Shown here: piece by piece, positions 5,101-28,223 of the stretch
Layout of the letters: each line of letters opens with the position of its first letter
Numbering within the stretch: position 1 is the stretch's first letter
From: Ostreococcus lucimarinus
Taxonomy: Eukaryota
Length of the DNA stretch: 64,000 bases
NCBI GenBank assembly: GCA_000092065.1
Contig: CP000591.1
Reading direction: 5' to 3' (one strand)
Notes under the pieces: model-generated
Databases searched by the model: none
What the model saw: the letters and a program-made list of their open reading frames with translations, nothing else
What the model was told of the DNA's origin: nothing
Program-made: the position numbers and the translations under genes

Positions 5101-7006
5101 GTGAAATCATCAAGTTATCGCCGAAACTCGCGCTGGGGTCCTTCGACACGTGAATCCAAGGCGTCGGTGTGAACGACGTCGTCACCATGAGAAAGCCGAG
5201 CGAAGCAAAAACCATCGGAACGAGAGCGACTCGCAGGATTAACACGCGAAGTACGAACCCGACAGCTTTCACACGGTCTCTAAAGTCGCCCACGCGTTTC
5301 GAGTATGTCCTGCGCCTCAACGCGTACTCCGCCATGAGCTCCATTCTCTCAGCAGCTTCGCGAGGTATCAAGCGCAAATTGAGCGGCGAAGTCGTCTCCA
5401 AGCGCACGGTTCGGAGTATAGCTTCATCGCTACCGTTCTCCCACGCGACGTCGGGAACAACTTTGAAACGCTGTTTTTCGCGATCGCGCACTGGAGTGAA
5501 ATCATCTCGCATCGCAACTGGTTGAAGAAGAACACGTCGCATCGTCTTGCTCATCATCGCGTGCACTTTGGCCAACTTGTTCACTTGCACAGTCTCTTCG
5601 TCGACTTGCGCACCGCCACCTGATTCGGCGTCTGGGTCGTCCGAGTATTGCGTTAATGTTTTATCGCCGCCAAGCTCTACGTACTCCGCGAATGCCCACA
5701 TGCATTGATCAAAATGGTCTCGGACACGTCCACAAAACTTGACGACTACAGGGCAAATGACAACGCCGAACAAAAGCACGACGAACCAGTTCGTGAGCTC
5801 CGTCTTGGCACCACGCTCCGTCATATCCGGGCCGAATAAACCAGGGTAGAAGAACACGTCCGCTATCGCATCGCGATACATTTCGTTTGAATGACTCGAG
5901 CGGCGCCATGCAAACGCCGTAAATGCAAAGAACTCGATGTACAGCTGGAATCGAAGAAGATTGTGGCTCCAATACTCCTTGTCCAAGACCTTGGCCAACT
6001 TGTAACGAAACATTAGTGCAAACGTAGCGCTCCTTAGTCGCACGGTGTACTTCACCCACGCCATAAGTTTCGATGCGGTCGCGACAAGTTGCTCGCCAAC
6101 CATACTTCGACGCCGCTCGGCGCGCTCCGTTGCGTACAAATTCTTCTGAAACTGTTCCTCAGCTTCGTTCCACAGTCCCGCCTCTTTGGCCGCTCGTTCT
6201 CGCGCCGACTTTTTCTTGTCGACGAGTATATTTTTCAAATCTCGATCTAAATCAATCTTCGTGACGTACGTGATGTGCTCGCTCTTAATCTCCTGCGTCA
6301 ATTCATCCAGCTCTCGCTTGTACTCGTCATCCAACTCTGCGTCGGCTTCACCGCTCCCAATCATCTTATAAGACGCCCCGACGTCTAAAATAACGTTTCT
6401 CTTATCCTCGAAATCGGAAGATTCAAGATTTCGACCGAACGAGTACGCACAAAACGCGGCGAACGCGATGAACGCCGCCGCCACAGCGGTATTCGTCGAC
6501 GTCTCGCAAGTCCACGAAACCTCCACCTCGAGCGTCTGACTCGCGTAACAACCGTTCGTATCCACCAATGCTGCAGAATACTTCCCCTCGACGTCCGGTC
6601 GCAGCGTCGCCCGCGCGCTTCCATCGACGTCAAACGTCGCGTTCGCGAACGACGTCGCGTTCGTCAGCGCGCTCGTCGCCGGCCACGACATCAGCACCCA
6701 CCGCCGCGTCGCATCACTCGCGCTCTCGAACACGTAATCATCAAAGCATCGTTTCTTAGTCGCGTCCAGCGTCGTGGCGTCGTAGGGATCGCCACCGCGA
6801 CCGGCGATTTCGAGCGTCGTCGCCTTGGCGCCGTCGTCCGCGCGCGCCGTCACCGCCGCCATCGACGCGCTCGACACCGAGCACTGCGGCAGCGCGTCCA
6901 CCGCGCGCGCGAGCGCGAGCGCACCGATCACCGCGAGCGTCAACGCTCGCGCGGCGCCGTTCGCGCGCGCGCGCGTTCGCCGCGCGCCTCGTCGTCCCCG
7001 CGGCAT
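2168..7006 (-). CDS. Large (~1600 aa) multi-pass membrane protein of unknown family: signal peptide, Cys-containing ectodomain, coiled-coil linker, >10 predicted TM helices, long helical-repeat-like cytoplasmic tail
   Basis: Continuous 1915-codon ORF. Chosen start MPRGRRGARRTRARANGAARALTLAVIGALALARAVDA|LPQ (signal-peptide-like; ATG reverse-complement at 7004-7006, in frame). Hydrophobic stretches such as FVVLLFGVVICPVVV, VLILRVALVPMVFASLGFLMV, IMPVVVCLVLLVAHM, VVIGIIMTLIAMVMV. I recognise no named family. GC content (~50%) is much lower than the flanks. Confidence 0.6.
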   Translation of the reverse strand: MPRGRRGARRTRARANGAARALTLAVIGALALARAVDALPQCSVSSASMAAVTARADDGAKATTLEIAGRGGDPYDATTLDATKKRCFDDYVFESASDATRRWVLMSWPATSALTNATSFANATFDVDGSARATLRPDVEGKYSAALVDTNGCYASQTLEVEVSWTCETSTNTAVAAAFIAFAAFCAYSFGRNLESSDFEDKRNVILDVGASYKMIGSGEADAELDDEYKRELDELTQEIKSEHITYVTKIDLDRDLKNILVDKKKSARERAAKEAGLWNEAEEQFQKNLYATERAERRRSMVGEQLVATASKLMAWVKYTVRLRSATFALMFRYKLAKVLDKEYWSHNLLRFQLYIEFFAFTAFAWRRSSHSNEMYRDAIADVFFYPGLFGPDMTERGAKTELTNWFVVLLFGVVICPVVVKFCGRVRDHFDQCMWAFAEYVELGGDKTLTQYSDDPDAESGGGAQVDEETVQVNKLAKVHAMMSKTMRRVLLQPVAMRDDFTPVRDREKQRFKVVPDVAWENGSDEAILRTVRLETTSPLNLRLIPREAAERMELMAEYALRRRTYSKRVGDFRDRVKAVGFVLRVLILRVALVPMVFASLGFLMVTTSFTPTPWIHVSKDPSASFGDNLMISLFVGLGAIAVSMKMAVVSETLEPNLRPVPIFEMLSIFLKVSLATIAAYMEGELPGHGVPALDSVARLESLNSLRNIMPVVVCLVLLVAHMNIQSLRGFGQKRNESRAGAFGGAFMFAVVTYFSRIFNNPPWMSHGLVPHTGGSNWTRPGVVIGIIMTLIAMVMVRVFNHSLGDHKCIRSELEKLSDPEQVEKVEKIMTPEFIKEQVEAENRRDRVVALVAFYNLLSTEQRTQLLSPLVKKTNMPRASQTKDGENEDVGDAWDTASDAFEELGIIMHCIIDDPDQEFLQVAGEGFIRSVIHAYVQGTVEIALWCDDDSPASTWEAVKSIVSTVKDCIKGGESKTFQATVATVSMECIQSFDFANLMSTLLFKAHDIDLDMYGEDYVVSARMFRQIIDDAFEIPPRPIAKKLTQAITHVRDPDTDEVRRLDKAERVTYVARSWLRQEVKAKNRPELNWFSSLGYYAAVGRLQNEADEERLELAHDFMKTLLDASLSTDKQISFYSIRTLATLVRVGDAGPSVFAVDGLKVLFECMEAHAGSSKETFVSEILYALTNADACRSEFLSALSHLIVSMEPGKEREKIHAIELLHQSIKLEMSAVYRVMNTKSDEGEVSKKSYKAFISMSAAQFVHDALYGMLIDDEAETRELSIHALVDLITLFVWGTEGNFYDFEVPVTGSYTDAAFERFVDAAKRKMPGGALMSKTMYRRLYGDIKVQGLQKDTDKLIAVLLKIVNTDDNAGVRAAAERGISDMRALLSDDSALTAITLYDESSDVRDVRGAAPSRETLHNVSAIIHSSVERQRQKDETISKLRLNEFWRKMKEREHSGNSHRQAKSTRGGRVEIERDSDPSKGPAPPIGGRMTMVKGTTGFKRVPDQATPKIVRHPPPPPPTERLERQRRARSALHADRLAKREAASDRWYGGENFRRQRSIESANNEASEVVVSSNIAALNERPTFTAPRYGTTKVPREFRRAPRPPE

Positions 7007-7319
7007 GGATTCGCTCGCCTCGGACGCGCGCGCGCGCGCCCGCGCGCTCGCGCGCCCGCGCGCGCCGCCCGCGCGCGCGGCGCCGAGCGATGACATCGCG
7101 CTACGCCTCGCGCATGCTCGCGAGACGACGGATCGCGGGCGACGCCGTGCGTCGCGGTTTACCGTCGCGCTGCAAACGGTCGATGACTCCGTCAGAACGC
7201 GACGACGACGAAGACGACGACGAAGACGACGAAGACGCGCGCGCGCGCGCGACGGAGGCGCGGCGAAACGCGCGTCGGCGTCGCGACGACTGCGCGGCGC
7301 GAACGCGCGCGTGACGGCG

Positions 7320-10304
7320 ATGGACGACGTTGCGAATGATTCCGGGCACCGTCTCGGAACGCGCGACGGCGGCGACGACGACGACGACGACGCGGAAGAG
7401 GACGGCGCGCGGTTGACGAGCGAACCTTCGACGTCGGGCGCGTCGCTGAGATACGCCACCGCGCGCGACGTGCCGTTTCGAAAGCTGTGCGGCGCGTTCG
7501 AGGCGTTGCAGAACGAACGCGGTCGGTCCAAGGCGACGAGCGCGCGGCGGTATCGAGTGCTCGATACACTGCACGATCGATGTCTCGTGAGCGCGCGCGA
7601 TGGAACCCGCGTCGACGCGTTCGACGCGTATCGGTTGATACTGCCGGCGTTGGACAAGGAACGAGGGGCGTATTTCTTGAAACACGACGCGTTGGCCAAG
7701 GTGGTGGTGTCGGCGTTCGACATGTCTCGAGCGAGCGAGGACGCGAAAAAGTTGGAGGATTGGAAACGAAAGGGTGGCGGTAACTTTCCGCAAGTTGTTC
7801 GAGACGTTTTGGCGGGTGGACATCTCGCGGATCGTGAGAAAGATGAAGACGCGCGCACGTTGACCATCGGAGACGTGAACGAGGCGTTGGACGCATTGGC
7901 GGCGTGCGATAACAAGGATCAGCGCGCGTCGACGCTGCGGGCGCTGTTTTCAAAGATGGATGCGACGCAAGTGAAATGGACGTGCGCAATCATATTAAAG
8001 GAAACAAAAATTTCAATGGGAGAGAAGGCGATATTGCGTCATTATCACTCCGAAGCGAATGACTTGTGGGATTGGACTAGCGATTTGCGAAGAGTTTGTG
8101 AAGACTTACCGCGGCGAGACTTCCGGATGAAGCGCGAGGACATCGATGTGGGCGTAGGTTTAATTAATCCTCAGATGGCGAGAAGGCAAAACAGCATCGA
8201 TGCCGTGTACCGCGCGTTGAAAGGTACGCAGTTTGTCATCGAAACCAAATTCGACGGCGAGCGCATTCAAATTCACAAAGACGGCGACATCATCAACTAC
8301 TGGACGAGAAACATGAACGATTTTGGCCCTCGTGGCTACGATGTGATGAATGCTCTCTTTCGTCATTTGCCAAAGCGATGCATTCTCGACGGCGAACTCA
8401 TGGTTTGGAACAAGCTTCGCGATCAGTCGTACCCGTTCGGCGCGTTGAAGAATCTCATCAAGGCTGCAAATATGCGCAAGGCCAAGGATGAATTGTTTCC
8501 ACTCAAGGCACACCTCGAAAACCGTGATGGTGGTGATAGCGACGGTGAGGAGGATCTCATGAGCTCCAAGTATGCGTGGTACGCCGAGAACGTAAAGAAA
8601 CTCACGTATGGAGACTTGGAATTGGTCTACGTTCCGTTTGATATATTGTATGCCGTCGATCGAAGTGTGAAGACTCATAAGCTGAGAGAGCGGCATGAAC
8701 TTTTGAAAGAGCATGTGCGTGAAGTATCAGTCATGTGTGGGAATATTCGTGCTAGAATTCTTCTCGCGACGCCCGATTGCGCGTTCTCACGTGTAGGCTC
8801 AACGAAGGAGGATATCGAGCGCGCGCTGTTAGAAGCGATGGATAACGGAGAGGAGGGATTGGTAATCAAAGATCTCGACGGTCCATGGATACCAGGTGAT
8901 CGTAGCAATAACTGGATGAAAATCAAACCAGACTACTTATCGAGTGAAGATTTGGACGTCGTTCTCATCGGCGGCTATTACGGCGCCGGTGAGTTGCGCG
9001 GGGGCAAAATTTCGCAGTTCCTCTGTGGCATTGTGGAGGCAACGAACGATCCGATTAGCACCGCTTCAGATGGAGTCAAAATCATGAGCTTTTGCAAGGT
9101 AGGTACTGGTATCAGCGCCATGCAGCTCGACGATTTGAGAAGTCGGCTAGGCGACTTCATGCACAGAGAAAAGCCTCAAGACATGAACTACAACGTCACG
9201 GATGCTTACAACGAAAAGCCGGACGTTTGGATCTGGCCTCCTCAGCGATCATTGGTTGTGACGGTGAAAGGTGACATTCGTGCGATTCGCACGACAACTT
9301 TCGCAACTGGTTACAGCCTGCGTTTCCCCCGCGTCACCGGTATTCGATATGACAAAAAATGGTCCGACATCTTGACACTCTGCGATCTCTTAAAGACGAT
9401 TGAAGAGGAAGTACCGACATTGAAAGTGAATATCGACGATACACGAGGCGGTACGAATGCCCGAAAGCGTTCGCGCACGACGGGACCCGCGACGCTACTA
9501 CCTGCACATCTCATGCCGGTTGACGTTTCGGGCGTCGTGCAGGAATCTGAAATCTTCAAAAACATGCAAGTGCACATCGCGAACTGTGAAAGTCGAGAAC
9601 AAAAGCAGGAGCTGTTCAAAGCTGTCATCGCACGTAGTGGTACTACGAGTGAGTTGTGGCACAAGCATGTGACGCACAGCGTTGCGTTGAACCGCGACGG
9701 CTCAAAGTTCAGGACGGCGAGTCGGGAAGGCGATGTGTACACGATTGCCTGGCTCCAAGAGTGCATTCACGAAGGACGTGTGGTACCGCCGAAACCTCGA
9801 CATCGCTTACATCTCTCAGCGACGACGTGGTATGGTACGGATGCCATGGATCGATACGGAGATGATCATTTCTCGGACTGCAATTTGGCCGACGTACACG
9901 CGCTCGTGCATCAAGTTGGCGATCAAACTAAGCGTTGGAAAACTGCCGAAGTTCCAGCATTGGTGGAGCTCGATCGCGAGTATCCATCGGTGTGTGCTGA
10001 TGTGAAACTTTTGACGTTTAGGGGTTGTGTGTTCGAGATTGACGATTCTCTCGGCAAAGATGCGCGTGTTGATGAGCAGAGTAGTATGTTTCCAAGTGTG
10101 CTGGCGGGCGAACGTCGAAACGTCGAACAGATTCTTCGGATTTATGGTGGAAAGCTCGCACCTGAAGGCAGAATGGGGACACATATTGTGCGCATGTACG
10201 ATGACTCCGTTGTCTTTGAAGATATGGATGATGGAAGAAAGCAAGTTTCGCTCTCTTGGGTGAAACGTTGCATCGACCGGTCGACAACGGCTGATGTAGT
10301 CTAA
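7320..10304 (+). CDS. LIG4: DNA ligase IV (ATP-dependent, NHEJ) with C-terminal tandem BRCT domains
   Basis: Adenylation site ETKFDGERIQIHKDG (KxDG). Compare human LIG4 WLKIKPEY / LRFPRIEKIRDDKEW with WMKIKPDYLSS / LRFPRVTGIRYDKKW here. Two BRCT-like C-terminal modules (...YTIAWLQECIHEGRVVP... and ...VSLSWVKRCIDRS). The ORF begins at 6825, but its first 165 codons overlap the opposite-strand membrane-protein N-terminus, so start chosen at MDDVAND (ATG 7320, in frame). Confidence 0.9.
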   Translation: MDDVANDSGHRLGTRDGGDDDDDDAEEDGARLTSEPSTSGASLRYATARDVPFRKLCGAFEALQNERGRSKATSARRYRVLDTLHDRCLVSARDGTRVDAFDAYRLILPALDKERGAYFLKHDALAKVVVSAFDMSRASEDAKKLEDWKRKGGGNFPQVVRDVLAGGHLADREKDEDARTLTIGDVNEALDALAACDNKDQRASTLRALFSKMDATQVKWTCAIILKETKISMGEKAILRHYHSEANDLWDWTSDLRRVCEDLPRRDFRMKREDIDVGVGLINPQMARRQNSIDAVYRALKGTQFVIETKFDGERIQIHKDGDIINYWTRNMNDFGPRGYDVMNALFRHLPKRCILDGELMVWNKLRDQSYPFGALKNLIKAANMRKAKDELFPLKAHLENRDGGDSDGEEDLMSSKYAWYAENVKKLTYGDLELVYVPFDILYAVDRSVKTHKLRERHELLKEHVREVSVMCGNIRARILLATPDCAFSRVGSTKEDIERALLEAMDNGEEGLVIKDLDGPWIPGDRSNNWMKIKPDYLSSEDLDVVLIGGYYGAGELRGGKISQFLCGIVEATNDPISTASDGVKIMSFCKVGTGISAMQLDDLRSRLGDFMHREKPQDMNYNVTDAYNEKPDVWIWPPQRSLVVTVKGDIRAIRTTTFATGYSLRFPRVTGIRYDKKWSDILTLCDLLKTIEEEVPTLKVNIDDTRGGTNARKRSRTTGPATLLPAHLMPVDVSGVVQESEIFKNMQVHIANCESREQKQELFKAVIARSGTTSELWHKHVTHSVALNRDGSKFRTASREGDVYTIAWLQECIHEGRVVPPKPRHRLHLSATTWYGTDAMDRYGDDHFSDCNLADVHALVHQVGDQTKRWKTAEVPALVELDREYPSVCADVKLLTFRGCVFEIDDSLGKDARVDEQSSMFPSVLAGERRNVEQILRIYGGKLAPEGRMGTHIVRMYDDSVVFEDMDDGRKQVSLSWVKRCIDRSTTADVV

Positions 10305-11708: not shown

Positions 11709-13987
11709 CTATTCAATATCACCAAGTCCTGTCCTAGTTCTGTCGTCTTCGTCTCTTGATTGTGCGGCGCACCGCGTGTCGGCGAGCGCCTTGGGTAATT
11801 TGTAAGCCCACTCACACGAGCATGTTATTGGATCTTTCAATACCTCTGTCACGACGCCTCGAGTGGCGAGACGAGATTGCTCTCCCTCCGCGATGCCGCA
11901 GTGCCGCTCCACAACTCGCGGCTCGTACTCTTTTCCATCCTTTCCCCCGCCGCTGCGAGGTCGACCTTGCTTGTCGTACGCTTCGTTGAAGCAGAAGTAC
12001 TGGTCGTGGTTGAGCGCGTTGTTGATCGCCGTATCAAATGCCTCGTCCTTTTGTTTATCATCGAAACCGCAAAATGAGCCTTCATCGAGTTGGTCGATCA
12101 TGATGACGCCGTGATCGTTATACGATTCCAGCGCCTCGACGGCGTCACTCGCTGAGAAACCGCGCTCGATGACGACATCAGCCATGTTTTTGTCGTCTTT
12201 CGCGCCAATTTTAACGTGAATGACATCTTCTCGAACGTTCCCTTTAAGTCGCATGTCTTCGAGGAACCCTGCTTCGCGAAAATCAACGCCCAAGTCATGC
12301 AAGCCTTCGAGGTTGTAGATGTGATCCATCGGGCACGCGTACGGCAAATGCGCCGTCTCGGCGCCGAGCGCGCGACATCCGGCGAGCGTGTTCCATATTT
12401 TATCGCAGTAACATCGCGCGGGTGGTAGCACAAAGATTCGTCCGAGCGCTTTCGCCAGGGCGAAGCCGTTTCGAATCGTCGTTCTTCGCAATCTGTCCTC
12501 TTCAAAGTGTCGCGTGATGGCGGTTAAATACGCATCGTTTTCCATGCCGATGGCCCGAGAACCATTGAACTTCATCTGCGACCCTTTGGTGGAGATGGTC
12601 AAGTACTTCTTTGGCTTCCAATAATCTGTGTCATCGTCTGCATACCATAAACCATGCTGTCGCAGTCTTTGACGCTTGCCGTACGCGTACCGCGCAGAAT
12701 CGCCGTATTGGTACGTCGTGTGCACCGCGTACGGCTCACCGTCCTCGGGGTGGTACAAGTGGTGCTCTTGCACGAAGAAAGTATGACCGTTGGAGAATTG
12801 CGCGATGGGCAAAACGCCCATGCGAATCGTGCTGTTTGCTGCGAAGACGATCGAGCGATACCCCGGTAATCCGCGCTTGTCATCGGGAACCGCCACCGCG
12901 GGCGCGAGCGCGGGAGATCCTTCGCGCACGAGCAAATTCAGCGCCGGCTGGTCGCGCATCCACGCGATCTCGCTCGTCGCTACTTTTTGCTTCCACTTTT
13001 CCACGAACGCCTTCGCCGGCTCCGTGGGCCGAATGTGCACGATGCCCGTGTTAAAGTTGACGTTGCGACAGTTGGCGTTGTCGGCGCGATCGTTCACGGT
13101 GTCGATGCAATCGCTCGATATCAGCACGTCCGCGTATGCGTAAGTGCCGTTGTTGAATAGCTCGCGCGGATCGCGCATCCAAACCACGTCCGCGTCGCTC
13201 AGAATCGGCGCTATCCCAAGCTCGAGCAAATCTTGAATAAACTTCGTCTTCACCGTGCCCATCTTTTTAAACGTCTTGCTCTTTTGCGTGATGAACTCTT
13301 GATCCCTATTATCCAACACTGACCGCCCCGTGAGCAGCATGGATGGTATCCCAGCCTTAACACATAGTGTGTGCATCTCTTCGTCTAAAGCGCCGACGAA
13401 TATCGGCTCTAAACTCAACTTTTTCGCCGCCGCCGCCCAATTGAAGACGAAATCCTGCACGCTCGCCGTGCCAAACGTCACGAACATCTCCCCCCCAGCC
13501 TTAGCGCCGACCCGCCGCAACTCCTCCGGCACGTGTTCCATCTTCTTTCCAAGCTCCATTTTCGCCGCATCATCGAGCGCATCCGCGGAAACGTCCTTCC
13601 ACGCCTGTCGCATCCACTTCGGCTCGTCGTCGTCGATCGCCAGCCCCGCGAACGTCGTCGCCGGCGGTTCCAACAGCGCGAAATCCATCCCCCGATCCCT
13701 CGGCCTCGATCCCGTCGACGCCGCGTCATCGCGTCGGTTCAATTCCACCCGTCCTTTTTCTCCCTCGTCCGTCGTCGTCGTCGTCGTCGTCGCCGACGCG
13801 AACCGATTTCTCCGCGTCGCCGACGCGTTCGCGTTCGCGTTCGCGTTCGCGTTCGCCGCCGCGTTCGCGTTCGCGTCCGCGTCCACCGCCGCCTCCACGG
13901 CCGCGTCGCTCCGCGCGCGCGCCGTCGCGTCGTACATCGACGCCGACGCGTCGTCGCCCGCCCTCCGCGCCGTCGCGTCGTCGATCG

Positions 13988-14021
<34 letters not shown>

Positions 14022-14177
14022 CGCCATCGCGCGCGCGTTCGCCTCGCGCGCCGTCGTCGCGGCGTCCGCGATCGCGCCGTCGCGCGCGCCGCCGCGCGCG
14101 CCCTCGCGCATCACCATCGCGCACGCCGCGACGACGGCGACGCACGCGAGGCGGCGCGCGAGGCGGCCGCGACGCAT
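11709..14177 (-). CDS. Type-II membrane nucleotide-diphospho-sugar transferase (GT77-like 'Nucleotid_trans' domain) with low-complexity stem region
   Basis: ORF extends to 14963, but the plausible start is MRRGRLARRLACVAVVAACAMVM (signal anchor; ATG reverse-complement 14175-14177, in frame). The stem carries (GD)n, (AN)n and T-rich tracts. Catalytic region motifs ...DADVVWMRDP... and FNTGIVHIRPT resemble plant RRA/XEG113-type arabinosyltransferases. Cys-rich C-terminal extension. Confidence 0.65.
13825..14030. repeat. Hexanucleotide microsatellites (GCGTTC)n and (GTCGCC)n inside the transferase stem region
   Basis: gcgttcgcgttcgcgttcgcgttcgc at 13826-13875 and gtcgccgtcgccgtcgccgtcgccgtcgcc at ~13990-14020. 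On the minus strand these encode the ANANAN.. and GDGDGD.. tracts. Confidence 0.8.
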
Positions 14178-14603
14178 CGCGTCGCCTCGCGTCCCGCACT
14201 GACGCGCGCGGCACCGACGCGCCTCGCGTCGACGAGCGAGCGAGCGATGGACGCGGTGCGCGACGCGACGCGACGCGACGCGAGACGCGAGACGCGCGCG
14301 CGAGGCGACGCGACGCGCGCGACGAGAGAGGGCGACGCGCGCGCGAGGCGATGATGATTCGACGCCAACCGACGACGATCGGATCGGCGCGAGAACGGAC
14401 GCGCGAAGACGCGCGGCGCGAGGACGGACGCGCGCGACGACGCGACCGTGGACGCGCGAACGATCGACGCGCGCGGACGCGACGCGCGGCGACGGAGAAG
14501 AGGAAACGAAGACGATGAGACGATTGGAGCGATTGTTTGACTGACGGCGACGACGGCGCGGCGACGACGATTCGAATAGGCGATCGAAAAATGGTGCGCC
14601 GAG

Positions 14604-15338
14604 ATGGGCACGACGCCCGAAAAGGTGGTGACGATGTACTTGGATGAAAAGTTTAAGTCGGCGACGGTCGAGGGGGAACTTTTGGCCAAGTGTGAAAACT
14701 TGAAGACGCTGTCGTGCGCGTCGTGCGGGTTGACGACGCTCGCGGGGTTCCCGGCGCTGGCGAATTTGAAGGATTTGAGTTTGAACGATAATCGCATCGC
14801 GGATGGGTTGGAAGCCTTGGTGGGGTGCAAGGCGCTCTCGTCGTTGTCGCTGGCGAATAATAAGCTGGCGAACGTGGACGATTTGAAAGCCGTGGCGGAG
14901 GAGTTGACGCTGTCGGTGCTCGAGTTGGAGGCGAATCCGTTGACGGAGAACGAAGACTATCACGAAAAGGTCATGACCATGATGCCCACGCTTAACGTGT
15001 TGGACGGAAGGGACGAGTTCGGGAATGAGATCGAAGACGACGACGAAGACGACGACGAAGACGAAGACGACGAAGACGACGAAGACGAAGACGAAGACGA
15101 CGATGAAGACGACGAAGACGCAGACGAAGACGAAGACGAAGACGAGTCCGAGGAAGAGGAAGAGGAAGAGGAAGAGGAGATGGGCTTAGCCGATCTCTAC
15201 GGCGACAAGCCGCTCGAAGACGACGACGACGACGACGACGCTTTCGTCGAAGACGAAGATCCCGAGAGCGAAGACATCGACGAAGAGGAGTCGGACGACG
15301 ACGAAGACGAAGCGGCGGCGAAAAAGCCCAAAATATAA
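14604..15338 (+). CDS. ANP32: Acidic leucine-rich nuclear phosphoprotein 32 (ANP32/LANP) family protein: LRR + LRRcap + poly-acidic tail
   Basis: N-terminal LRRs (LKTLSCASCGLTTLAGFPALANLKDLSLNDNRI..., LSSLSLANNKL) and the LRRcap motif ELEANPLTENEDYHEKVMTMMPTLNVLDG. These are followed by ~100 residues of D/E (GAC/GAA repeats at 15040-15310) and a KKPKI basic C-terminus. Confidence 0.8.
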   Translation: MGTTPEKVVTMYLDEKFKSATVEGELLAKCENLKTLSCASCGLTTLAGFPALANLKDLSLNDNRIADGLEALVGCKALSSLSLANNKLANVDDLKAVAEELTLSVLELEANPLTENEDYHEKVMTMMPTLNVLDGRDEFGNEIEDDDEDDDEDEDDEDDEDEDEDDDEDDEDADEDEDEDESEEEEEEEEEEMGLADLYGDKPLEDDDDDDDAFVEDEDPESEDIDEEESDDDEDEAAAKKPKI

Positions 15339-17459: not shown

Positions 17460-18497
17460 CTACCAAGTCAAAATCATATCCTTCGTGTAGCCGAGCTCCT
17501 CGAGCGCCGGGAGCACGGCGAACTTCAACATCGGCGGTGGGCCGCAAATCAAAATTTGCGTGCGCTTCCCCGGCGGTGGCATCGTCTTTTCGATCATTTC
17601 TTTGGTGATGAAACCGCAGAAGTGCGACCAGCCGGCTTTGGGCGGGCGGTCGAGCGTGTAGTCGGCGCTAAACTTGTCGGCGCCGTATTTAGCGACGTCG
17701 GATTCAATCTCCTCGCGACACAAAATATCCGCCTCGGTTTGGTTCGCGAACAACAAATTCATCTTCACCTTGTCTCCGTTATCTAAAATAGCGCGCGAGA
17801 TTTGCAACATGGGCGTGATTCCGCTGCCGCCCGCGATCATGCCGACGCGCGAGCACTTGCGTTTTTCAAACCCGCCGCCCTGCGAACGCAACCGCCTGAT
17901 CGCGAAGACCCCACCGCCTTCGTACGTTTTCATCCCTTTCGGCCCATCGAAGTCGCACGAGTCACCGACGCGCAACCCATCGAGGTGTTGGCTCACCTTC
18001 CCCCCGAGCGGAAACTTTTCGCACGGCTTGTACGCCTTAATCACAAACGTCACCGAACCCTCTTGATCGTCCGTGCTCACCGGCGTGTACGGTCGCTCGT
18101 GCCGCTCGCCGCTCTTCGCGTCCACGTACGACAACCCGACGTGCTGTCCCACGGGCAAGCCCAAGACGTGCGACGGCGTCGGCAGCGCGAACGTCAGCCG
18201 CGCCGCGTCCGGCGAAATCTGTTCTCTTCGCGCCAACTTCAGCGCGACGCGCGACGTCCCGAGCGTCTTCGGCGACGCCGCCGTCCGCGCCTTCGCTCGA
18301 CGACGCGCGCTCCCCTCGCGCGTCGCGCGCAGCGCGAGATCGAGGACGACCAAGAGCGCGGCGACCGCGATCCCGAGCACGGTGACCGCGTTGACGAACT
18401 CGGGCGTGCCGAACTCTGGGAGCGTCAGCGCGCCCGTCTTCGCGTCGAACAGCGTCTTGGGCAGCGCGAACAGCTCGCGCGGCGCGGGCGCGGGCAT
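17460..18497 (-). CDS. CBR1: NADH-cytochrome b5 reductase (FAD/NAD-binding ferredoxin-reductase-type), N-terminal membrane anchor
   Basis: 345 aa. Anchor VTVLGIAVAALLVVL. FAD site RPYTPVS. NADH site GMIAGGSGITPMLQ and ICGPPPM. C-terminal ...MILTW typical of CBR. Confidence 0.85.
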   Translation of the reverse strand: MPAPAPRELFALPKTLFDAKTGALTLPEFGTPEFVNAVTVLGIAVAALLVVLDLALRATREGSARRRAKARTAASPKTLGTSRVALKLARREQISPDAARLTFALPTPSHVLGLPVGQHVGLSYVDAKSGERHERPYTPVSTDDQEGSVTFVIKAYKPCEKFPLGGKVSQHLDGLRVGDSCDFDGPKGMKTYEGGGVFAIRRLRSQGGGFEKRKCSRVGMIAGGSGITPMLQISRAILDNGDKVKMNLLFANQTEADILCREEIESDVAKYGADKFSADYTLDRPPKAGWSHFCGFITKEMIEKTMPPPGKRTQILICGPPPMLKFAVLPALEELGYTKDMILTW

Positions 18498-18691: not shown

Positions 18692-18765
18692 GTTGGGTTG
18701 GTATAGTTGGTTATTACGTCCGCCTCACACGCGGAAGGTCAGGAGTTCGAACCTCCTACCCAATA
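18692..18765 (+). tRNA. trnV-CAC: tRNA-Val (anticodon CAC)
   Basis: Cloverleaf folds by hand. Acceptor GTTGGGT/ACCCAAT (G1:U72). D-arm GTAT-AGTTGGTTA-TTAC. Anticodon stem TCCGC/GCGGA with loop CTCACAC (U33, CAC at 18726-18728, A37). Variable loop AGGTC. T-arm AGGAG-TTCGAAC-CTCCT. Discriminator A. No encoded CCA, as expected for a nuclear gene. Very similar to human tRNA-Val-CAC. Confidence 0.85.
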
Positions 18766-23237: not shown

Positions 23238-26200
23238 GTGAGGACGAAAAGAGGCGACATGGGGCACGCTTCGAACGATGCGAGCGGTCGCGGTCGACGA
23301 GGGATGACGTCGGGGACGGCGCTGCGAGCGTTGATGGCGGCGAGCGCGGCGACGTTGGCGCGCGCGAGCGCGACGACTTCGACGTGCGATTATTACATGA
23401 CGCCCGAGGGTGAGGGAACGACGATCGGGCAAACCGACGCGGGTACTATCATGAATCCGTTCGGGAGCTTGGAGGAGGCGCAGTTGGCGCTGAAACCGGG
23501 GCAGACGCTGTGCGTGTTGAGCGGGACGTACGAGCTCGACACGTTCATCGGGGCGGAGATCTTGGCGCGAGGTAATGCCGACGCGCCGATTACCATTCGC
23601 GGCTACCGCACGAGCGATGGTGCGGATTTGCCAAAGTTCCGGTTTAGCGGTGGTGTTGCGTTGGATTTTAGAGGTGCCGAGTACGTCACCGTAGAAGACA
23701 TTGAAGTCGACGGCGGCGCCTCGGAGGCGACTACGGAGGATGTCGTCAAAGCGTGGTGGAATGGTGAAAAGCTCGCGCACGTGGGTAGGACTTGCTTTAG
23801 AATTGGTCAAAAGTCGCGACACGTGAGCATCAAGCGAAACGCGTGCCACGACGTCAGTGAGGTGGCGGTAAACGTCGTCGACGCGTTATATTCATCAATC
23901 AAGCTCAACGTGTTTTATCGCATCGGTTGGTTTGGTGTCGGCGATATCGCTGCGGTGAAACGCACATACACCGCCGCGGTGGACGAAGACGAAGAAGATG
24001 ACTATCGGCTGGATGTACAAGGCAACGCGATCTGGGGCGTCGAATCGCACTTGTATGAGCGAACGGAGAATGCTTCGTACTCCAAATTTGTGAAGACTTT
24101 CGGCGTCGCTTTGGACGCTGTGGCGGATGAAGATCTACGAATGCGATTTTCCGAGAACGTCATCGCGTTCAACGCTAACGTTGGGATGAAGATCGCGCGT
24201 TCGCCGTACGTTGTCGTGAGCAAGAACACGTTCTACTCCGATCCCACCGCCGGCGCGTCTTTACTCACTGACTCAGCCATGACTTCGAAGTTAATTTTGA
24301 AGGATAACATCTTCTCCACGAGTCAAAGTGCTGACTTCGCGCTCGATGTGGGCGCATCATATGGTACCGATATCGATCCTGATTTCTTCCGCAACAACAT
24401 TGTCGCCGGAGGCGGTGCGGTTCTCGATGGCAACCTCACCGTCACGCGTATCTCGTCGCAACTCTTCGCGGATGCCGCGCACGGCAACTTTACCCTTCTT
24501 CCGGCGGCCGAAGAAAGTATCAACGCCACTACGGTACCAGGAGTGGATGCGGCGGTTTTGAAGGTTCTCGCTCGCGTGATGAAGGATTTCAATGCCGGTA
24601 CGATGGCGAGAAGCGAGTGGGTGGCGAATCACAAGACGCTCACCCAGTTGATCATCAAAACGGCGCCGTCGATGTACACAAAAATCACGTCCACGCGAAA
24701 AGGTCCGGAAGACGCATCGGTGCAGTTCACTGATCCCGTCACGAATGAGTTTTTCACGTTGAAACTCAATCCTGCGTACGCGCGCGATCTTTTCGAGCGC
24801 GGTGCGTCTCCGTTGGACGGCTCCGAGGATGAGAACGCGTATCCGTTGGATGGCCCCGACGATGAGAACGCGTATCCGATCTCTGTGGGTGCACTCGGTC
24901 AAGGTTACCCGGCGAATAACACTGGTTACCCGTCGAATAGCACTGGTTACCCGTCGAGTAGCACTGGATACCCGTCGGATAGCACTGGTTCTGGTTACCC
25001 GTCGAATAGCACTGGATACCCGGCAAGCGGATACCCGGCGAATAGCACTGGATATCCGGCAAAGGGATACCCGGCGAACAGCAACGGATATCCGGCAAAG
25101 GGATACCCGGCGAACAGCACTGGATATCCGGCAAAGGGATACCCGGCGAACAGCAACGGATATCCGGCAAAGGGATACCCGGCGAACAGCACCGGATATC
25201 CGGCAAAGGGATACCCGGCGAACAGCAACGGATATCCGGCAAAGGGATACCCGGCGAACAGCACCGGATATCCGGCAAAGGGATACCCGGCGAACAGCAA
25301 CGGATATCCGGCAAAGGGATACCCGGCGAACAGCAACGGATATCCGGCCAACAGCGATGGGTATCCAGCGACGCGGACGCCAGCCATGCCGGAAAGCATC
25401 GCCGAACAGATAGAAGACGCCGTCGCGGACGCCGTCCAGCAAATTCAAAGTGTCACGGCGAACGCGACTGAGGAGATTGTACAGGCTGAGGCAGAAGCGG
25501 TGACTAACGTGACCGAGACGGCGGGAGACGAAGAAGGATCCGACGTGGATGAGTTGTTGGCGGACGCCACAAATGACGTTTCGCCACCGCCGCCACCGCC
25601 GCCGCCGCCGAGACGCAAGCCGCCGCCGCCGCCGCCGCCGTACCCGGGCACGGTCCAACCGCCGTCGCCACCGCTTCCGCCGGCACCTCCTCATGTGGAT
25701 AGCGAAGCTGGCCTCGTGAATGGTCGCATCGTCATTCCCGTAAGGGACACGCTCAGAGATTTCCTTCTGGAGAGAAATGAAGTAGTGAACGCGTCCTCGA
25801 TGAGCTTGGACCATCCGGATGAAGATGTATCCGAAATCGAAGATCTTGAGCCGGAGTGCTACAATCCTCCGCGCGGATGTCCGGCCATATTCCATTTGAG
25901 CAACTACAGAGCTCAAGCGGTGTCAAAAGTGTCTGATGACTCGTCCACGTCGTACTCGAGCGACCGAGCGGCGTTCGCGGCGTATCGTGGCGAGCGTTTC
26001 GCTACTGAACAGTCACGAGGTTCGGTGCAGGAGTTCGATGCACAGCGGCCGGTGGAAGATAGTCCGTACGGACCGAACATTGATAGAGCCTTCTTTGCCG
26101 CACTTGGGATGCAAAAGGAGTCCGCATTCAAACCGAATGAGATCATCGCCCCGATGGCTGTCCTCATGGTCATCGCCGCCGCGGTTGTCGCGAGCGAGAG

Positions 26201-27038
26201 ATTGACAAAGCGAGGTCCAATCGAGGAACGCGCTTCGTTGTTAGCGTCGACTTCTGACGTGGCCGAGCGTGAGGCGAGCAAGTTGCGAGCGATGAAGACG
26301 AGAAGGAATGCGATGGTCGCGTCGGCTCTTGCGGGTGTGTTCTTCGTCGCCACCGCCACTTCGTCGACGCCCGGAGCGGCGGCTGTGATGCGCGCAAAGA
26401 AGGAGGTGGCGCAGCTAGGCTCTAAGCTAGCGGACTGTGCCGGTAAGTTCTACGTTGTGAACTTACCTTTCTCTTCGTGCGCCGTCAAGGGAAGCGAAAT
26501 TCCTGTCGGTGCTCGGCCATTCCCTCTCGAAGACTTCATCAAATTTGAGGCTTTCGTCGTCGCGAGGCTCGGTTGGGGTGGATTCTGGTCTATGAAATCA
26601 TCGGGCTATGAAATCCGTTCCGCCGCTCGTGCGCACGTCATCGAGGAGCGTCGCGTGAAGAACGAAGAAAATGTCACCAACGGCTTGATGGATTATCATC
26701 GTCAGTGCTTGCGAACAAAGACGTGGTGCCTTGAAGAGGGGAGCGAAAACGCGTGCTGCAGGGACATGCCGGTGACGGCTGTTGAACAAGAAGAAGATGA
26801 CCTGGAGTTCAACACGTACGACTCGATCCTTCGCAATTTGTGCGGATGCGCGTTGATGATGGATAAGACACCGACGGGATGCGGACAAATCGACGCTCTT
26901 GGACGAGATTTGTACTGCGATAGAATGCGCGCGATGGGGATGGGCGACGATCTCCCCGCATGCTGCGATGCTCCGAACCCGTTCCGCGTGCAGGAATGCC
27001 TATGCAAAGGAGACGAGAATCACATGGCGTACACATAA
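23238..27038 (+). CDS. Large secreted/cell-surface glycoprotein: signal peptide, right-handed beta-helix (pectin-lyase-like) domain, GYPANSTGYPAK tandem repeats, polyproline tract, TM helix, Cys-rich C-terminal domain
   Basis: 1266 aa. Signal-like MTSGTALRALMAASAATLARASA (the true start may be this M, ~23304). Beta-helix hallmarks: NAIWG..., ENVIAFNANVGMKIARSPYVV, KDNIFS. Repeat block 24903-25372. PPPPPPPPPRRKPPPPPPPY at ~25577-25640. TM PMAVLMVIAAAVVASE. C-terminus rich in Cys (CCRD.., CGCALMMDKTPTGCGQ.., CCDAPNPFRVQECLC). Confidence 0.7.
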   Translation: MRTKRGDMGHASNDASGRGRRGMTSGTALRALMAASAATLARASATTSTCDYYMTPEGEGTTIGQTDAGTIMNPFGSLEEAQLALKPGQTLCVLSGTYELDTFIGAEILARGNADAPITIRGYRTSDGADLPKFRFSGGVALDFRGAEYVTVEDIEVDGGASEATTEDVVKAWWNGEKLAHVGRTCFRIGQKSRHVSIKRNACHDVSEVAVNVVDALYSSIKLNVFYRIGWFGVGDIAAVKRTYTAAVDEDEEDDYRLDVQGNAIWGVESHLYERTENASYSKFVKTFGVALDAVADEDLRMRFSENVIAFNANVGMKIARSPYVVVSKNTFYSDPTAGASLLTDSAMTSKLILKDNIFSTSQSADFALDVGASYGTDIDPDFFRNNIVAGGGAVLDGNLTVTRISSQLFADAAHGNFTLLPAAEESINATTVPGVDAAVLKVLARVMKDFNAGTMARSEWVANHKTLTQLIIKTAPSMYTKITSTRKGPEDASVQFTDPVTNEFFTLKLNPAYARDLFERGASPLDGSEDENAYPLDGPDDENAYPISVGALGQGYPANNTGYPSNSTGYPSSSTGYPSDSTGSGYPSNSTGYPASGYPANSTGYPAKGYPANSNGYPAKGYPANSTGYPAKGYPANSNGYPAKGYPANSTGYPAKGYPANSNGYPAKGYPANSTGYPAKGYPANSNGYPAKGYPANSNGYPANSDGYPATRTPAMPESIAEQIEDAVADAVQQIQSVTANATEEIVQAEAEAVTNVTETAGDEEGSDVDELLADATNDVSPPPPPPPPPRRKPPPPPPPYPGTVQPPSPPLPPAPPHVDSEAGLVNGRIVIPVRDTLRDFLLERNEVVNASSMSLDHPDEDVSEIEDLEPECYNPPRGCPAIFHLSNYRAQAVSKVSDDSSTSYSSDRAAFAAYRGERFATEQSRGSVQEFDAQRPVEDSPYGPNIDRAFFAALGMQKESAFKPNEIIAPMAVLMVIAAAVVASERLTKRGPIEERASLLASTSDVAEREASKLRAMKTRRNAMVASALAGVFFVATATSSTPGAAAVMRAKKEVAQLGSKLADCAGKFYVVNLPFSSCAVKGSEIPVGARPFPLEDFIKFEAFVVARLGWGGFWSMKSSGYEIRSAARAHVIEERRVKNEENVTNGLMDYHRQCLRTKTWCLEEGSENACCRDMPVTAVEQEEDDLEFNTYDSILRNLCGCALMMDKTPTGCGQIDALGRDLYCDRMRAMGMGDDLPACCDAPNPFRVQECLCKGDENHMAYT
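24903..25372. repeat. Coding tandem repeat, 36-nt unit (GYPANSTGYPAK / GYPANSNGYPAK alternating, effective period 72 nt), ~13 units, most regular at 25035-25330
   Basis: Near-identical units ggatacccggcgaacagcaccggatatccggcaaag / ...aacagcaacgga... The NST variant is an N-glycosylation sequon; the NSN variant is not. Confidence 0.9.
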
Positions 27039-27197: not shown

Positions 27198-28223
27198 TCA
27201 TTCCATCCCCGTCACTCCGCCTTCCGTGATCTGGAATTCAGCTTCGTCTTCTTTCAGAGTCGGACCTTGAAGCACTTTGAGCACGCGCGCCTCGGCTCTG
27301 CCCTTTCTTACCATCAGACGAATCGTAGACGCATGGGCCAAAACGTGCCCCCCGATCGCCTTCTTTGGTTCAACTCCCGCGAAAGCCATGCCCCCCGGGT
27401 CAGATTGGACTTGATTAGTGAGCACGACGGCGACGTTGAATTCTTCGGCAATTTTTCGCAAGCGAGAGAGGAACTGATTGAGTGTCTGCTGTCGTTCGCT
27501 CAACTCTCCTCTCGCGACGTAATCCACTCGAAAAATCGCCATGATGCTGTCGACGACGAGTAACTTGAAAGGTTCTTCAGCCATTTTCGCGCCAATAGCG
27601 ATGAGAGCATGCATCATTTGATCGACGGTATCCACGCGAGCGACCATGACGTTCGATAAAACGGCGTCAGCGTCCAGTCCAAAGCGGTTCGCGATTTGAA
27701 CGAGGCGGTCTCCGCGGAAGGTGTTTTCGGTATCGATCCACGCCACCTTGGCGCATCCACCGCCCATTTCCACCGGCATTTGCGTCGTAACGGCAATAGT
27801 GTGACATAGCTGGGTCTTGCCGCATCGCCACTCGCCGTAAATCTCCGTGATCGCTCGACTTTCAAATCCGCCGCCCAAGATCGCGTCCACCGCGGCGGCT
27901 CCAGATGTAATATGCACCACATCCTTGCGTCGCTCCGCATCCTCCGCCGCCGTGACAAATCCCCCAGCTTCGCTCTCCGGTAACAGTTTGACCGCACCTT
28001 CCAAAACCTTATCCGCTTTAGCGTCAGAGAAGCCTTTGACCGCGATGATCGCCTTTCGCGGAAACATCAACAACTGTCTCACCGTGACGAATCCCGCGTC
28101 TCTCAACTTTTTTATATCCGTCGCCGACACCCCGCTCTGCTGCAGCGCATCGATGGACACGATGTTCGACTGTTCCTCCGCAAACGTCACCCCGGCGTCT
28201 TCTTCCACGTCAACCCTACGCAA
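27198..28223 (-). CDS. DMC1: Meiotic recombinase DMC1 (RecA/RAD51 family)
   Basis: 341 aa. Walker A GEWRCGKTQLCHT. DMC1-type diagnostic stretches match DMC1 rather than RAD51: WIDTENTFRGDRL vs RAD51 IDTEGTFRPERL; DSIMAIFRVDY vs DSATALYRTDY. Also ERQQTLNQFLSRLRKIAEEFNVAVVLTNQV and the N-terminal HhH IDALQQSGVSATDIKKLRDAGF. Confidence 0.88.
   Translation of the reverse strand: MRRVDVEEDAGVTFAEEQSNIVSIDALQQSGVSATDIKKLRDAGFVTVRQLLMFPRKAIIAVKGFSDAKADKVLEGAVKLLPESEAGGFVTAAEDAERRKDVVHITSGAAAVDAILGGGFESRAITEIYGEWRCGKTQLCHTIAVTTQMPVEMGGGCAKVAWIDTENTFRGDRLVQIANRFGLDADAVLSNVMVARVDTVDQMMHALIAIGAKMAEEPFKLLVVDSIMAIFRVDYVARGELSERQQTLNQFLSRLRKIAEEFNVAVVLTNQVQSDPGGMAFAGVEPKKAIGGHVLAHASTIRLMVRKGRAEARVLKVLQGPTLKEDEAEFQITEGGVTGME

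What the first reader, a model, noticed from the sequence alone, without database searches (positions are those of the whole stretch)
23238..27038. Lineage-specific surface glycoprotein: beta-helix + (GYPANST/GYPANSN-GYPAK) repeats + polyproline + TM + Cys-rich tail
The architecture combines a pectin-lyase-like right-handed beta-helix with about 13 near-identical 36-nt repeats. Every second unit carries an N-X-T glycosylation sequon (NST versus NSN). Then come a 9+7 proline run, one TM helix and a Cys-rich cytoplasmic or extracellular module. It resembles hydroxyproline-rich or scale-associated glycoproteins of green algae, yet sits in a lineage usually described as wall-less. The repeat units are nearly identical at the nucleotide level, which implies recent expansion or concerted evolution and likely copy-number polymorphism between strains.
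Basis: seen in the sequence. Interest (0 to 1): 0.55.

Follow-up and report, generated by a model that had tools for sequence, protein, structure and literature searches.

The report
Ostreococcus membrane protein with variable repeat stalk
This is a real, conserved gene found only in the tiny marine alga Ostreococcus; it encodes a membrane protein with a sugar-recognising beta-helix head, a repeat "stalk" whose length differs between assemblies, and a new cysteine-rich domain, but its function is inferred rather than shown.

Summary
The 3.8-kb ORF is real. The window is most likely Ostreococcus lucimarinus CCE9901: a neighbouring gene is 100% identical to XP_001420479.1.

- **Repeats:** 25 GYP motifs, including eight 36-nt units that are 96.5% identical and alternate between NST and NSN.
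- **Proline run:** P9-RRK-P7, as described.
- **Membrane segments:** two conserved hydrophobic segments, not one, flanking an invariant EERASLL motif.
- **C-terminal domain:** 14 invariant cysteines, with no Pfam or PDB match.

Positional orthologues (between the aminotransferase and DMC1 genes) occur in at least five other Ostreococcus-like lineages known only from metagenomes. They keep the helix, the YP-rich spacer, the membrane hairpin and the cysteine domain. They do not keep the polyproline run or the N-glycosylation sites.

dN/dS is 0.13-0.19 in the two globular domains. About 27 same-species metagenome ORFs are intact but carry 0-3 of the 36-nt units instead of 8; assembly collapse cannot be excluded. 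Motifs conserved across the wider beta-helix family are lost in Ostreococcus, which favours glycan binding over catalysis.

Surface location and glycosylation are inferred only. The resemblance to extensins and other hydroxyproline-rich wall glycoproteins (HRGPs) is weak.

The parts
23259..27038 (+). Coding sequence (1259 aa plus stop), single exon. The ORF is open from GTG at 23238; an alternative ATG lies at 23304.
   Evidence: ORF list. GC3 is 0.66 against GC2 0.50, typical of genes in this window. Orthologues share the same gene neighbours. dN/dS is 0.13-0.53 against a 95%-identical lineage.
23304..23372 (+). Signal-peptide-like N-terminus (MTSGTALRALMAASAATLARASA)
   Evidence: Read from the sequence. 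Orthologues have clearer hydrophobic N-termini, with Kyte-Doolittle (KD) hydropathy 1.6-2.1. Not tested with a trained predictor.
23373..24803 (+). Right-handed parallel beta-helix domain with a C-terminal alpha/beta subdomain; PL9-like fold
24804..24878 (+). Acidic 33-nt repeat (PLDG[SP][ED]DENAY), 2.3 copies
   Evidence: TRF. In-frame 9-bp and 3-bp length differences occur here in L001, L008 and L002.
24903..25028 (+). Heptad GYP[AS]xST units (21 nt, five units, one carrying a 6-nt GS extension) plus one GYPAS
   Evidence: TRF; codon parsing.
25029..25379 (+). Eight 36-nt units, GYPANS(T/N)-GYPAK, at 25029-25316, followed by a degenerate tail (GYPANSN, GYPANSD, GYPATRT)
   Evidence: TRF 9.8 copies, 95% matches. 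Units are 96.5% identical and a 72-nt double unit is duplicated. Other assemblies carry 0-3 units.
25380..25568 (+). Acidic, probably helical spacer carrying two N-X-T sites
   Evidence: Sequence. It aligns with orthologues.
25569..25694 (+). Proline-rich spacer: S-P9-RRK-P7-YPG, then PSPPLPPAPP
   Evidence: Absent from P0064; P0067, P0244 and P0245 have only short runs of 3-4 prolines. A different form occurs in P0270, P0271 and P0068.
25695..26132 (+). Conserved segment next to the membrane (GRIVIPV..LDHPDEDVS..ECYNPPRGC..HLSNYR)
   Evidence: Alignments with orthologues.
26139..26201 (+). Hydrophobic segment 1 (TM1)
   Evidence: Kyte-Doolittle peak 2.25. Conserved in all orthologues.
26223..26243 (+). 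Invariant EERASLL in the 35-aa loop between the two hydrophobic segments; it has the form of an acidic dileucine sorting signal ([DE]xxxL[LI])
   Evidence: Invariant in all eight Ostreococcus-type sequences examined. The sorting-signal reading is an inference from general knowledge.
26307..26366 (+). Hydrophobic segment 2 (TM2, Ala/Gly-rich), preceded by M-K-T-R-R-N; it resembles an internal signal anchor
   Evidence: Kyte-Doolittle peak 1.61 here and 1.7-2.0 in orthologues. Alignment.
26367..27035 (+). C-terminal domain with 14 invariant Cys; no known family
   Evidence: No Pfam, NCBIfam or PDB sequence match. All 14 Cys are invariant across orthologues. The last ~110 aa (11 of the 14 Cys) are also recognisable in P0069. 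dN/dS 0.135. The AlphaFold2 model failed with pLDDT 39.

Best explanation
The ORF encodes a fast-evolving membrane protein of the secretory pathway that is restricted to Ostreococcus.

Proposed layout:
- A signal peptide sends the N-terminus out of the cytosol.
- A PL9-like right-handed beta-helix forms the distal head.
- The head is held away from the membrane by a low-complexity spacer: acidic repeats, Tyr-Pro-rich Ser/Thr/Asn repeats and, in this species, a polyproline rod. The spacer is probably glycosylated.
- Two hydrophobic segments form a hairpin. Its short cytosolic loop carries an invariant EERASLL motif that looks like an adaptor-binding dileucine signal.
- The chain then returns to the outside as a 14-cysteine, presumably disulfide-bonded, domain next to the membrane.

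Proposed function: the head most likely binds a glycan, perhaps an acidic one, rather than cleaving it, because the motifs conserved in the wider beta-helix family are degenerate or deleted in all Ostreococcus orthologues. The 36-nt array grows and shrinks by slippage or unequal exchange. This changes stalk length and, in this species, the number of N-glycosylation sites.

Shown: gene reality, fold, domain order, conservation pattern, purifying selection, repeat structure.
Inferred: topology, surface location, glycosylation, binding rather than catalysis, the repeat mechanism.
For: Gene reality:
- Positional orthologues sit between the pol-eta/aminotransferase genes and the DMC1/DCP1 genes in L005, L006 and L008.
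- About 27 intact same-species ORFs exist in independent assemblies.
- dN/dS is 0.19 in the helix and 0.135 in the Cys domain, with dS 0.13-0.16.
- Between species, synonymous sites are saturated and pN is 0.33-0.48.

Fold.

Hairpin with both ends outside:
- Two hydrophobic segments and 14 Cys are invariant in all orthologues.
- P0069 has signal peptide, helix, TM, loop, TM and Cys module, and then a second beta-helix with no further TM. Helix and Cys module should therefore lie on the same side of the membrane.

Binding rather than catalysis:
- The family motifs QKAVNI, SLSGGHGIMR, NVEQRIYSW, DEGK, IRLK and DGIT are altered or deleted in the four Ostreococcus orthologues aligned. R219, E231 and D259 remain.

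Spacer as a variable element:
- Every orthologue has YP-rich repeats at the same place, but with different units and numbers.
- Unit number differs between assemblies.

Fast evolution: 41-50% identity in the helix, against 75-80% for DMC1 and 63-66% for pol eta in the same species pairs.
Against: - No expression, localisation or glycosylation data exist.
- No trained signal-peptide or TM predictor was available. The N-terminus is Ala/Arg/Ser/Thr-rich and only weakly hydrophobic, and TM2 is only moderately hydrophobic (KD 1.61).
- The Cys-domain model failed, so disulfides cannot be told apart from metal binding. If TM2 does not span the membrane, the domain would be cytosolic.
- The catalytic residues of PL9 could not be mapped, and three charged residues invariant across the family are retained, so catalysis is not excluded.
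- Copy-number differences come mostly from short-read metagenome assemblies, which break or collapse such arrays (N gap in L002; contig L003 starts just after the array).
- A dileucine-type signal could equally mean an endosomal or vacuolar location.
Confidence: 0.55

Rival explanations
1. It is an active membrane-tethered polysaccharide lyase or glycosidase. It would cut an extracellular or self-made acidic polysaccharide, with the stalk and anchor simply holding the enzyme at the cell surface.
Against: Identity to any enzyme is only 11-17%, and sequence-level matches cover only the N-terminal cap. The score against the PelN model is 20.6 bits against a cut-off of 740. The best-conserved motifs of the wider family (GGHG, VEQR, DEGK, IRLK) are lost or deleted in all four Ostreococcus orthologues aligned. 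No member of that family has a named function.
Confidence: 0.2
2. It resides in internal membranes (Golgi, endosome or vacuole) rather than at the cell surface. There it would act on or bind glycans in the lumen, and the repeat spacer would be a lumenal linker.
For: The invariant EERASLL in the predicted cytosolic loop fits the [DE]xxxL[LI] adaptor-binding signal (motif reading from general knowledge). Ostreococcus has no wall or scales for such a protein to be built into (general knowledge).
Against: Long, variable, glycosylation-prone stalks and fast evolution are more typical of exposed proteins. Dileucine signals also serve endocytic cycling of surface proteins.
Confidence: 0.15
3. It is a decaying or dispensable gene: the ORF is broken in some strains, and the repeat block is an assembly artefact.
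For: L001 carries three 1-bp indels in the coding sequence. L008/P0270 and P0237 share a +1 frameshift inside TM2. No NCBI or UniProt protein for this ORF turned up, although neighbouring O. lucimarinus proteins are in the collection.
Against: About 27 other assemblies have intact ORFs, and L002 and L003 lack the L001 indels. Downstream of the L008 frameshift the original frame still shows dN/dS 0.135 at dS 0.156. That points to an assembly error or a very recent change. The two frameshifted contigs whose records were looked up (L001, L008) both come from one assembly series with 'contig_N' names. The array is present at the same site in every assembly.
Confidence: 0.05

Closest known systems
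PL9 pectate / rhamnogalacturonan lyases (Pel9A, PDB 1ru4; BT4170, PDB 5olq)
   Different: Identity is only 16-17%. Sequence profiles match only the first ~100 residues. The score is far below the PelN equivalog cut-off. Catalytic and Ca-binding residues were not verified. This protein is eukaryotic and membrane-anchored, with extra domains.
Uncharacterised beta-helix family found here (e.g. Photobacterium marinum WP_007462767.1 and Salpingoeca rosetta PTSG_08606)
   Same: The homology is clear over ~420 residues, including the C-terminal alpha/beta subdomain (E 1e-36 to 1e-10; 309 hits). The Salpingoeca member is also a membrane-anchored eukaryotic protein.
   Different: The Ostreococcus orthologues have lost the family's signature motifs: GGHGIMR, VEQRIYSW, DEGK (deleted), IRLK and DGIT. 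No member has a known function.
Chimeric extensins and hydroxyproline-rich glycoproteins of green algae (as catalogued for O. lucimarinus in PMC4769139)
   Same: Both have a signal peptide, a globular domain joined to a Pro-rich and Ser/Thr-rich repetitive spacer, and an S-P9 run that could form a polyproline-II rod.
   Different: There is only one SPPP and no YXY, so the >=2 SPPP criterion fails. The polyproline run is not conserved in orthologues. The sequence is absent from that paper's supplementary lists. Hyp-Araf4 was not detected in O. tauri (PMC5371791). The dominant repeat is GYP-based, not SPn.
Surface adhesins with variable tandem-repeat stalks (yeast Flo/Als-type; general knowledge), and the beta-helix adhesin PfbA of Streptococcus pneumoniae (PDB 3zpp/4mr0)
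   Different: There is no sequence relationship. The anchoring differs: a two-segment hairpin plus a cysteine domain, rather than a GPI or LPXTG anchor. Adhesion has not been tested.

Membership tests
Pectate-lyase-fold right-handed beta-helix superfamily | Sequence match to the Pfam Beta_helix model (PF13229) at or above the gathering score | tested here: met
   The domain alone scores 26.6 bits against 25.9, a marginal pass. The full-length protein scores 23.0 bits, below the cut-off. Relatives P0068, P0069, P0074 and P0075 pass.
Pectate-lyase-fold right-handed beta-helix superfamily | Three-dimensional fold: stacked parallel beta coils | tested here: met
CAZy PL9 (Pel9A-type lyases) | Ca-binding aspartate cluster and catalytic lysine in the active-site groove | not testable with these tools
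   No residue-level structural alignment was available. The sequence alignment to 1ru4 covers only profile positions 4-94.
CAZy PL9 (Pel9A-type lyases) | Family-level sequence similarity (NCBIfam PelN equivalog) | tested here: not met
   20.6 bits against a cut-off of 740; only the N-terminal cap matches.
Uncharacterised beta-helix family (Photobacterium / Salpingoeca type) | Homology over the whole ~420-residue domain | tested here: met
   Profile search E 1e-36 to 1e-10 over profile positions ~88-500. Alignment A3 shows 22-26% identity with 16 invariant columns.
Uncharacterised beta-helix family (Photobacterium / Salpingoeca type) | Signature motifs SLSGGHGIMR, NVEQRIYSW, DEGK, IRLK, DGIT | tested here: not met
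   In the window and three orthologues they are replaced by WFG-VGDIAAVKR and GVESHLYER, DEGK is deleted, and the last two read MKIA and SLLT.
Extensin / HRGP (criteria of PMC4769139) | Two or more SPPP motifs | tested here: not met
   One SPPP, at aa 775.
Extensin / HRGP (criteria of PMC4769139) | YXY cross-linking motifs | tested here: not met
   None found.
Extensin / HRGP (criteria of PMC4769139) | Proline hydroxylation and O-arabinosylation/galactosylation | not testable with these tools
   This needs chemistry. PMC5371791 reports that Hyp-Araf4 was not detected in O. tauri.
Variable-number tandem-repeat coding array | Head-to-tail near-identical units kept in frame | tested here: met
   TRF reports 9.8 x 36 nt, 95% matches, no indels. 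Eight units are 96.5% identical.
Variable-number tandem-repeat coding array | Unit number differs between strains | tested here: inconclusive
   The window has 8 units; about 27 same-species metagenome ORFs and L001 have 0-3. Short-read collapse is possible. Short arrays in the P0067 and P0068 lineages differ by 1-2 units and should be reliable.
N-glycoprotein | N-X-S/T sites in an exoplasmic region, conserved among orthologues | tested here: not met
   There are 15 sites here, 7 of them in the repeats. P0064, P0067, P0244, P0245 and P0068 have only 1-3. Actual glycosylation is not testable.
Two-pass (hairpin) membrane protein | Two conserved hydrophobic segments of TM length | tested here: met
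   KD peaks are 2.2-2.6 and 1.6-2.0 in all orthologues with an intact reading frame. No trained predictor was run, and the orientation is inferred from P0069.

The most novel reading that the evidence does not exclude
This protein is a strain-variable surface receptor or adhesin of naked Ostreococcus cells. It could be the attachment site used by, or shielding against, prasinoviruses, or a gamete/cell-cell recognition molecule. In that case the length and glycan load of the GYP stalk would tune the interaction, and the 14-Cys module would be a new extracellular fold.
Probability: 0.1. Interest if true: 0.8.

Novelty: new variant of a known kind. Interest (0 to 1): 0.42.

Why it matters
Almost nothing is known about the proteins exposed on the surface of wall-less, scale-less picoalgae such as Ostreococcus. 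Yet that surface decides virus attachment, grazing, aggregation and mating.

This locus offers a concrete candidate that is conserved across the genus and can be tested. It has a glycan-recognising head, a stalk that may vary between strains, and a new cysteine-rich domain. It also appears to be missing from the reference annotation, so screens based on the proteome (for example for extensins) would have overlooked it.

If it turns out to be an ordinary internal glycan-handling protein, the interest is modest.

Tried and rejected
- **C-terminal domain:** no match in Pfam, NCBIfam or PDB sequences. AlphaFold2 with a 5-sequence alignment failed (pLDDT 39), so no fold search was run on it.
- **afdb50 fold library:** not available.
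- **BFVD viral structures:** only generic phage tailspikes, no prasinovirus relative.
- **IMG/VR scan for the Cys module:** nothing.
- **Paralogues:** none in the window by tblastn.
- **Rfam:** only a tRNA elsewhere in the window.
- **Literature:** nothing for the repeat motif, and the sequence is absent from the extensin paper's supplements.
- **Recent horizontal transfer:** rejected, because GC3 and codon-position GC are ordinary for the window and gene neighbourhood is conserved.
- **Two separate genes read as one ORF:** rejected. TM2 looks like a signal peptide preceded by Met, but every orthologue with an intact reading frame keeps one open frame at 37-50% identity.
- **Antisense ORFs over the repeats (for example 24357..25916):** treated as by-products of GC-rich periodic sequence.
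- **Search sensitivity:** the first single-sequence homologue search returned one hit, although many same-species proteins exist. Absence in that tool is therefore weak evidence.


Full report
**Observation**

The window holds one uninterrupted ORF, 23238..27038 on the + strand. It is 1266 aa from GTG. The first ATG is at 23259 (1259 aa; residue numbers below count from it).

Tandem Repeats Finder reports four arrays:
- a 33-nt acidic repeat at 24804-24878, 2.3 copies;
- a 21-nt array at 24903-25022, 5.4 copies;
- a 36-nt array at 24996-25348, 9.8 copies, 95% matches, no indels, score 608;
- a CCG run at 25582-25640.

Read codon by codon, the region holds 25 GYP motifs:
- five GYP[AS]xST heptads and one GYPAS;
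- eight complete 36-nt units, GYPANS(T/N)-GYPAK, at 25029-25316;
- a degenerate tail.

The eight units are 96.5% identical on average. The four NSN units are identical, and the 72-nt double unit at 25137-25208 is repeated exactly at 25209-25280. NST and NSN alternate through all eight units. P9-RRK-P7 is present, and the last 230 residues hold 14 cysteines.

Two details in the finding need correcting. There are 8 to 10 of the 36-nt units, not about 13. There are two hydrophobic segments (aa 961-981 and 1017-1036), not one.

**Organism and annotation**

The cytochrome-b5 reductase gene at 17463-18497 is 100% identical to XP_001420479.1 of Ostreococcus lucimarinus CCE9901, including a residue that differs in other strains. 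Window GC is 60.8%.

No NCBI or UniProt protein for this ORF appeared in any search or in any cluster that was read, and the exact product is not on record. The gene therefore seems to be missing from the reference annotation. This still has to be checked directly.

**Is it a real gene?**

Yes. Five lines of evidence agree.
- Positional orthologues lie between the pol-eta/aminotransferase genes and the DMC1/DCP1 genes in metagenome contigs L005 (P0064, 1110 aa), L006 (P0068, 1252 aa) and L008 (P0270, 95% identical).
- Further orthologues are P0067, P0244, P0245 and P0271.
- About 27 same-species ORFs from independent assemblies are intact from start to stop.
- Against the 95% lineage, dN/dS is 0.19 in the beta-helix, 0.53 in the spacer, 0.24 in TM1 and the loop, and 0.135 in the TM2-Cys domain, with dS 0.07-0.16. 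DMC1 next door gives 0.01.
- GC3 is 0.66, ordinary for genes in this window.

The gene evolves fast. Identity in the helix is 41-50%, against 75-80% for DMC1 and 63-66% for pol eta in the same species pairs.

**N-terminal domain**

- Pfam Beta_helix passes narrowly when the domain is scanned alone: 26.6 bits against a 25.9 cut-off. The Pel9A-like model PF22842 is precomputed on all orthologues.
- An exhaustive profile search of 1.84 billion representatives found 309 proteins with this ~420-residue domain. They include hypothetical proteins of Photobacterium marinum and the choanoflagellate Salpingoeca rosetta.
- A profile of that family matches the N-terminal cap of GH136, PL6, PL9 and GH120 enzymes among PDB sequences.
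- An AlphaFold2 model built on a 16-sequence alignment has pLDDT 86 and pTM 0.88.

The fold assignment is therefore solid. Membership of PL9 is not shown. The score against the PelN model is 20.6 bits against a cut-off of 740, and the catalytic residues could not be mapped.

In the family alignment the best-conserved motifs (QKAVNI, SLSGGHGIMR, NVEQRIYSW, DEGK, IRLK, DGIT) are altered or deleted in all four Ostreococcus sequences. R219, E231 and D259 stay invariant. I read this as a shift away from the ancestral activity, most simply towards binding. This is an inference.

**Spacer**

Every orthologue has Tyr-Pro-containing, Ser/Thr/Asn-rich repeats at the same position, but the units differ: GYPANST/GYPAK here, AYPS/EYPSSDS in one lineage, and NNYPTATPS in another.

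Two features of the window protein are not conserved.
- The polyproline run is long only in the O. lucimarinus group.
- N-X-S/T sites number 15 here, 13 and 11 in two relatives, and 1-3 in five others.

The conserved property is thus a YP-rich, hydroxy-amino-acid-rich linker, not N-glycosylation or polyproline.

The protein has one SPPP and no YXY. It does not meet the criterion used to call extensins in this very species (PMC4769139) and is absent from that paper's lists. Extensin-like proteins in Ostreococcus have been reported before (PMC4769139, PMC5371791).

**Membrane region and C-terminal domain**

Three features are invariant in every orthologue with an intact reading frame:
- two hydrophobic segments;
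- the motif EERASLL in the 35-residue loop between them;
- 14 cysteines after the second segment.

A more distant protein, P0069 (from a 64% GC contig), has this order: signal peptide, helix, TM, loop, TM, a module matching the last ~110 residues (11 of the 14 cysteines), then a second beta-helix with no further TM. That arrangement argues that the helix and the cysteine module lie on the same, exoplasmic side, which means a hairpin.

EERASLL fits the acidic dileucine pattern that binds clathrin adaptors (general knowledge). That would place the loop in the cytosol and suggests regulated trafficking.

The cysteine domain has no Pfam, NCBIfam or PDB relative. Its AlphaFold2 model failed, and no viral homologue was found.

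**Copy number and broken copies**

- L001 has exactly 180 bp (5 x 36) fewer than the window.
- About 27 same-species ORFs carry 0-3 GYPAK units, with different T/N orders.
- Short-read assemblies break at the array (100-N gap in L002; L003 starts just after it). Collapse therefore cannot be excluded.
- In two orthologue lineages, arrays short enough to assemble reliably differ by one or two units.

Frameshifts occur in L001 (three 1-bp indels) and in L008/P0270 and P0237 (a shared +C at window position 26353). The two frameshifted contigs whose records were looked up, L001 and L008, come from one assembly series with 'contig_N' names. L002 and L003 lack the L001 indels. Downstream of the L008 frameshift the original frame is still under purifying selection. 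Assembly error is the simplest reading.

**Conclusion**

The finding is real and is a good candidate for an exposed membrane protein of Ostreococcus. Function remains inferred.

Noticed in passing
window 23238-27038: No NCBI or UniProt protein for this ORF was returned, although O. lucimarinus CCE9901 proteins from the same window are in the collection. The gene appears to be missing from the reference annotation.
   Followed up: partly
window 11709-14963 (-): A 1084-aa ORF carries a Nucleotid_trans domain (PF03407, E 4e-46) about 8 kb upstream. From general knowledge, this family includes the GT77 arabinosyltransferases that act on hydroxyproline-rich proteins in plants. Its closeness to a Pro-rich surface-type protein may be coincidence.
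   Followed up: no
window 2168-7915 (-): A 1915-aa ORF has no Pfam match at E<=1e-5; it is another large uncharacterised protein.
   Followed up: no
window 26289-26366: The second hydrophobic segment is preceded by Met plus basic residues (MKTRRN here; MRRS in orthologues) and followed by ATSSTP. It looks like a signal peptide, so an internal start producing a separate secreted Cys-rich protein is conceivable.
   Followed up: no
L001 11354, 12155, 13212; L008 9146: Single-base indels break the ORF in these two contigs, both from ENA assemblies of one series (ERZ10646601, ERZ10646630) with 'contig_N' names. The same +1 site recurs in P0237. This may be a systematic assembly error.
   Followed up: partly
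P0068 (L006 5085-8843); P0244/P0245: Orthologues have independent repeat expansions elsewhere. P0068 has SYPS-type repeats before the beta-helix. P0244 and P0245 have four TTLNAPTTE(D/G) units next to the membrane. P0067 has a VEDGAQQVPPP repeat.
   Followed up: no
window 27198-28223 (-): The gene lies tail-to-tail with a RecA-family gene that JGI names DMC1 (meiotic recombinase), only ~160 bp away. This arrangement is kept in all orthologous loci.
   Followed up: partly
window 18692-18765 (+): A tRNA gene; it is the only Rfam match in the window.
   Followed up: no
window 24357-25916 (-) and other frames over the repeats: Long antisense and off-frame ORFs run through the repeat and GC-rich region. 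A gene caller preferred minus-strand ORFs in L002 (1221-3231). This may be one reason the gene was missed in annotation.
   Followed up: no
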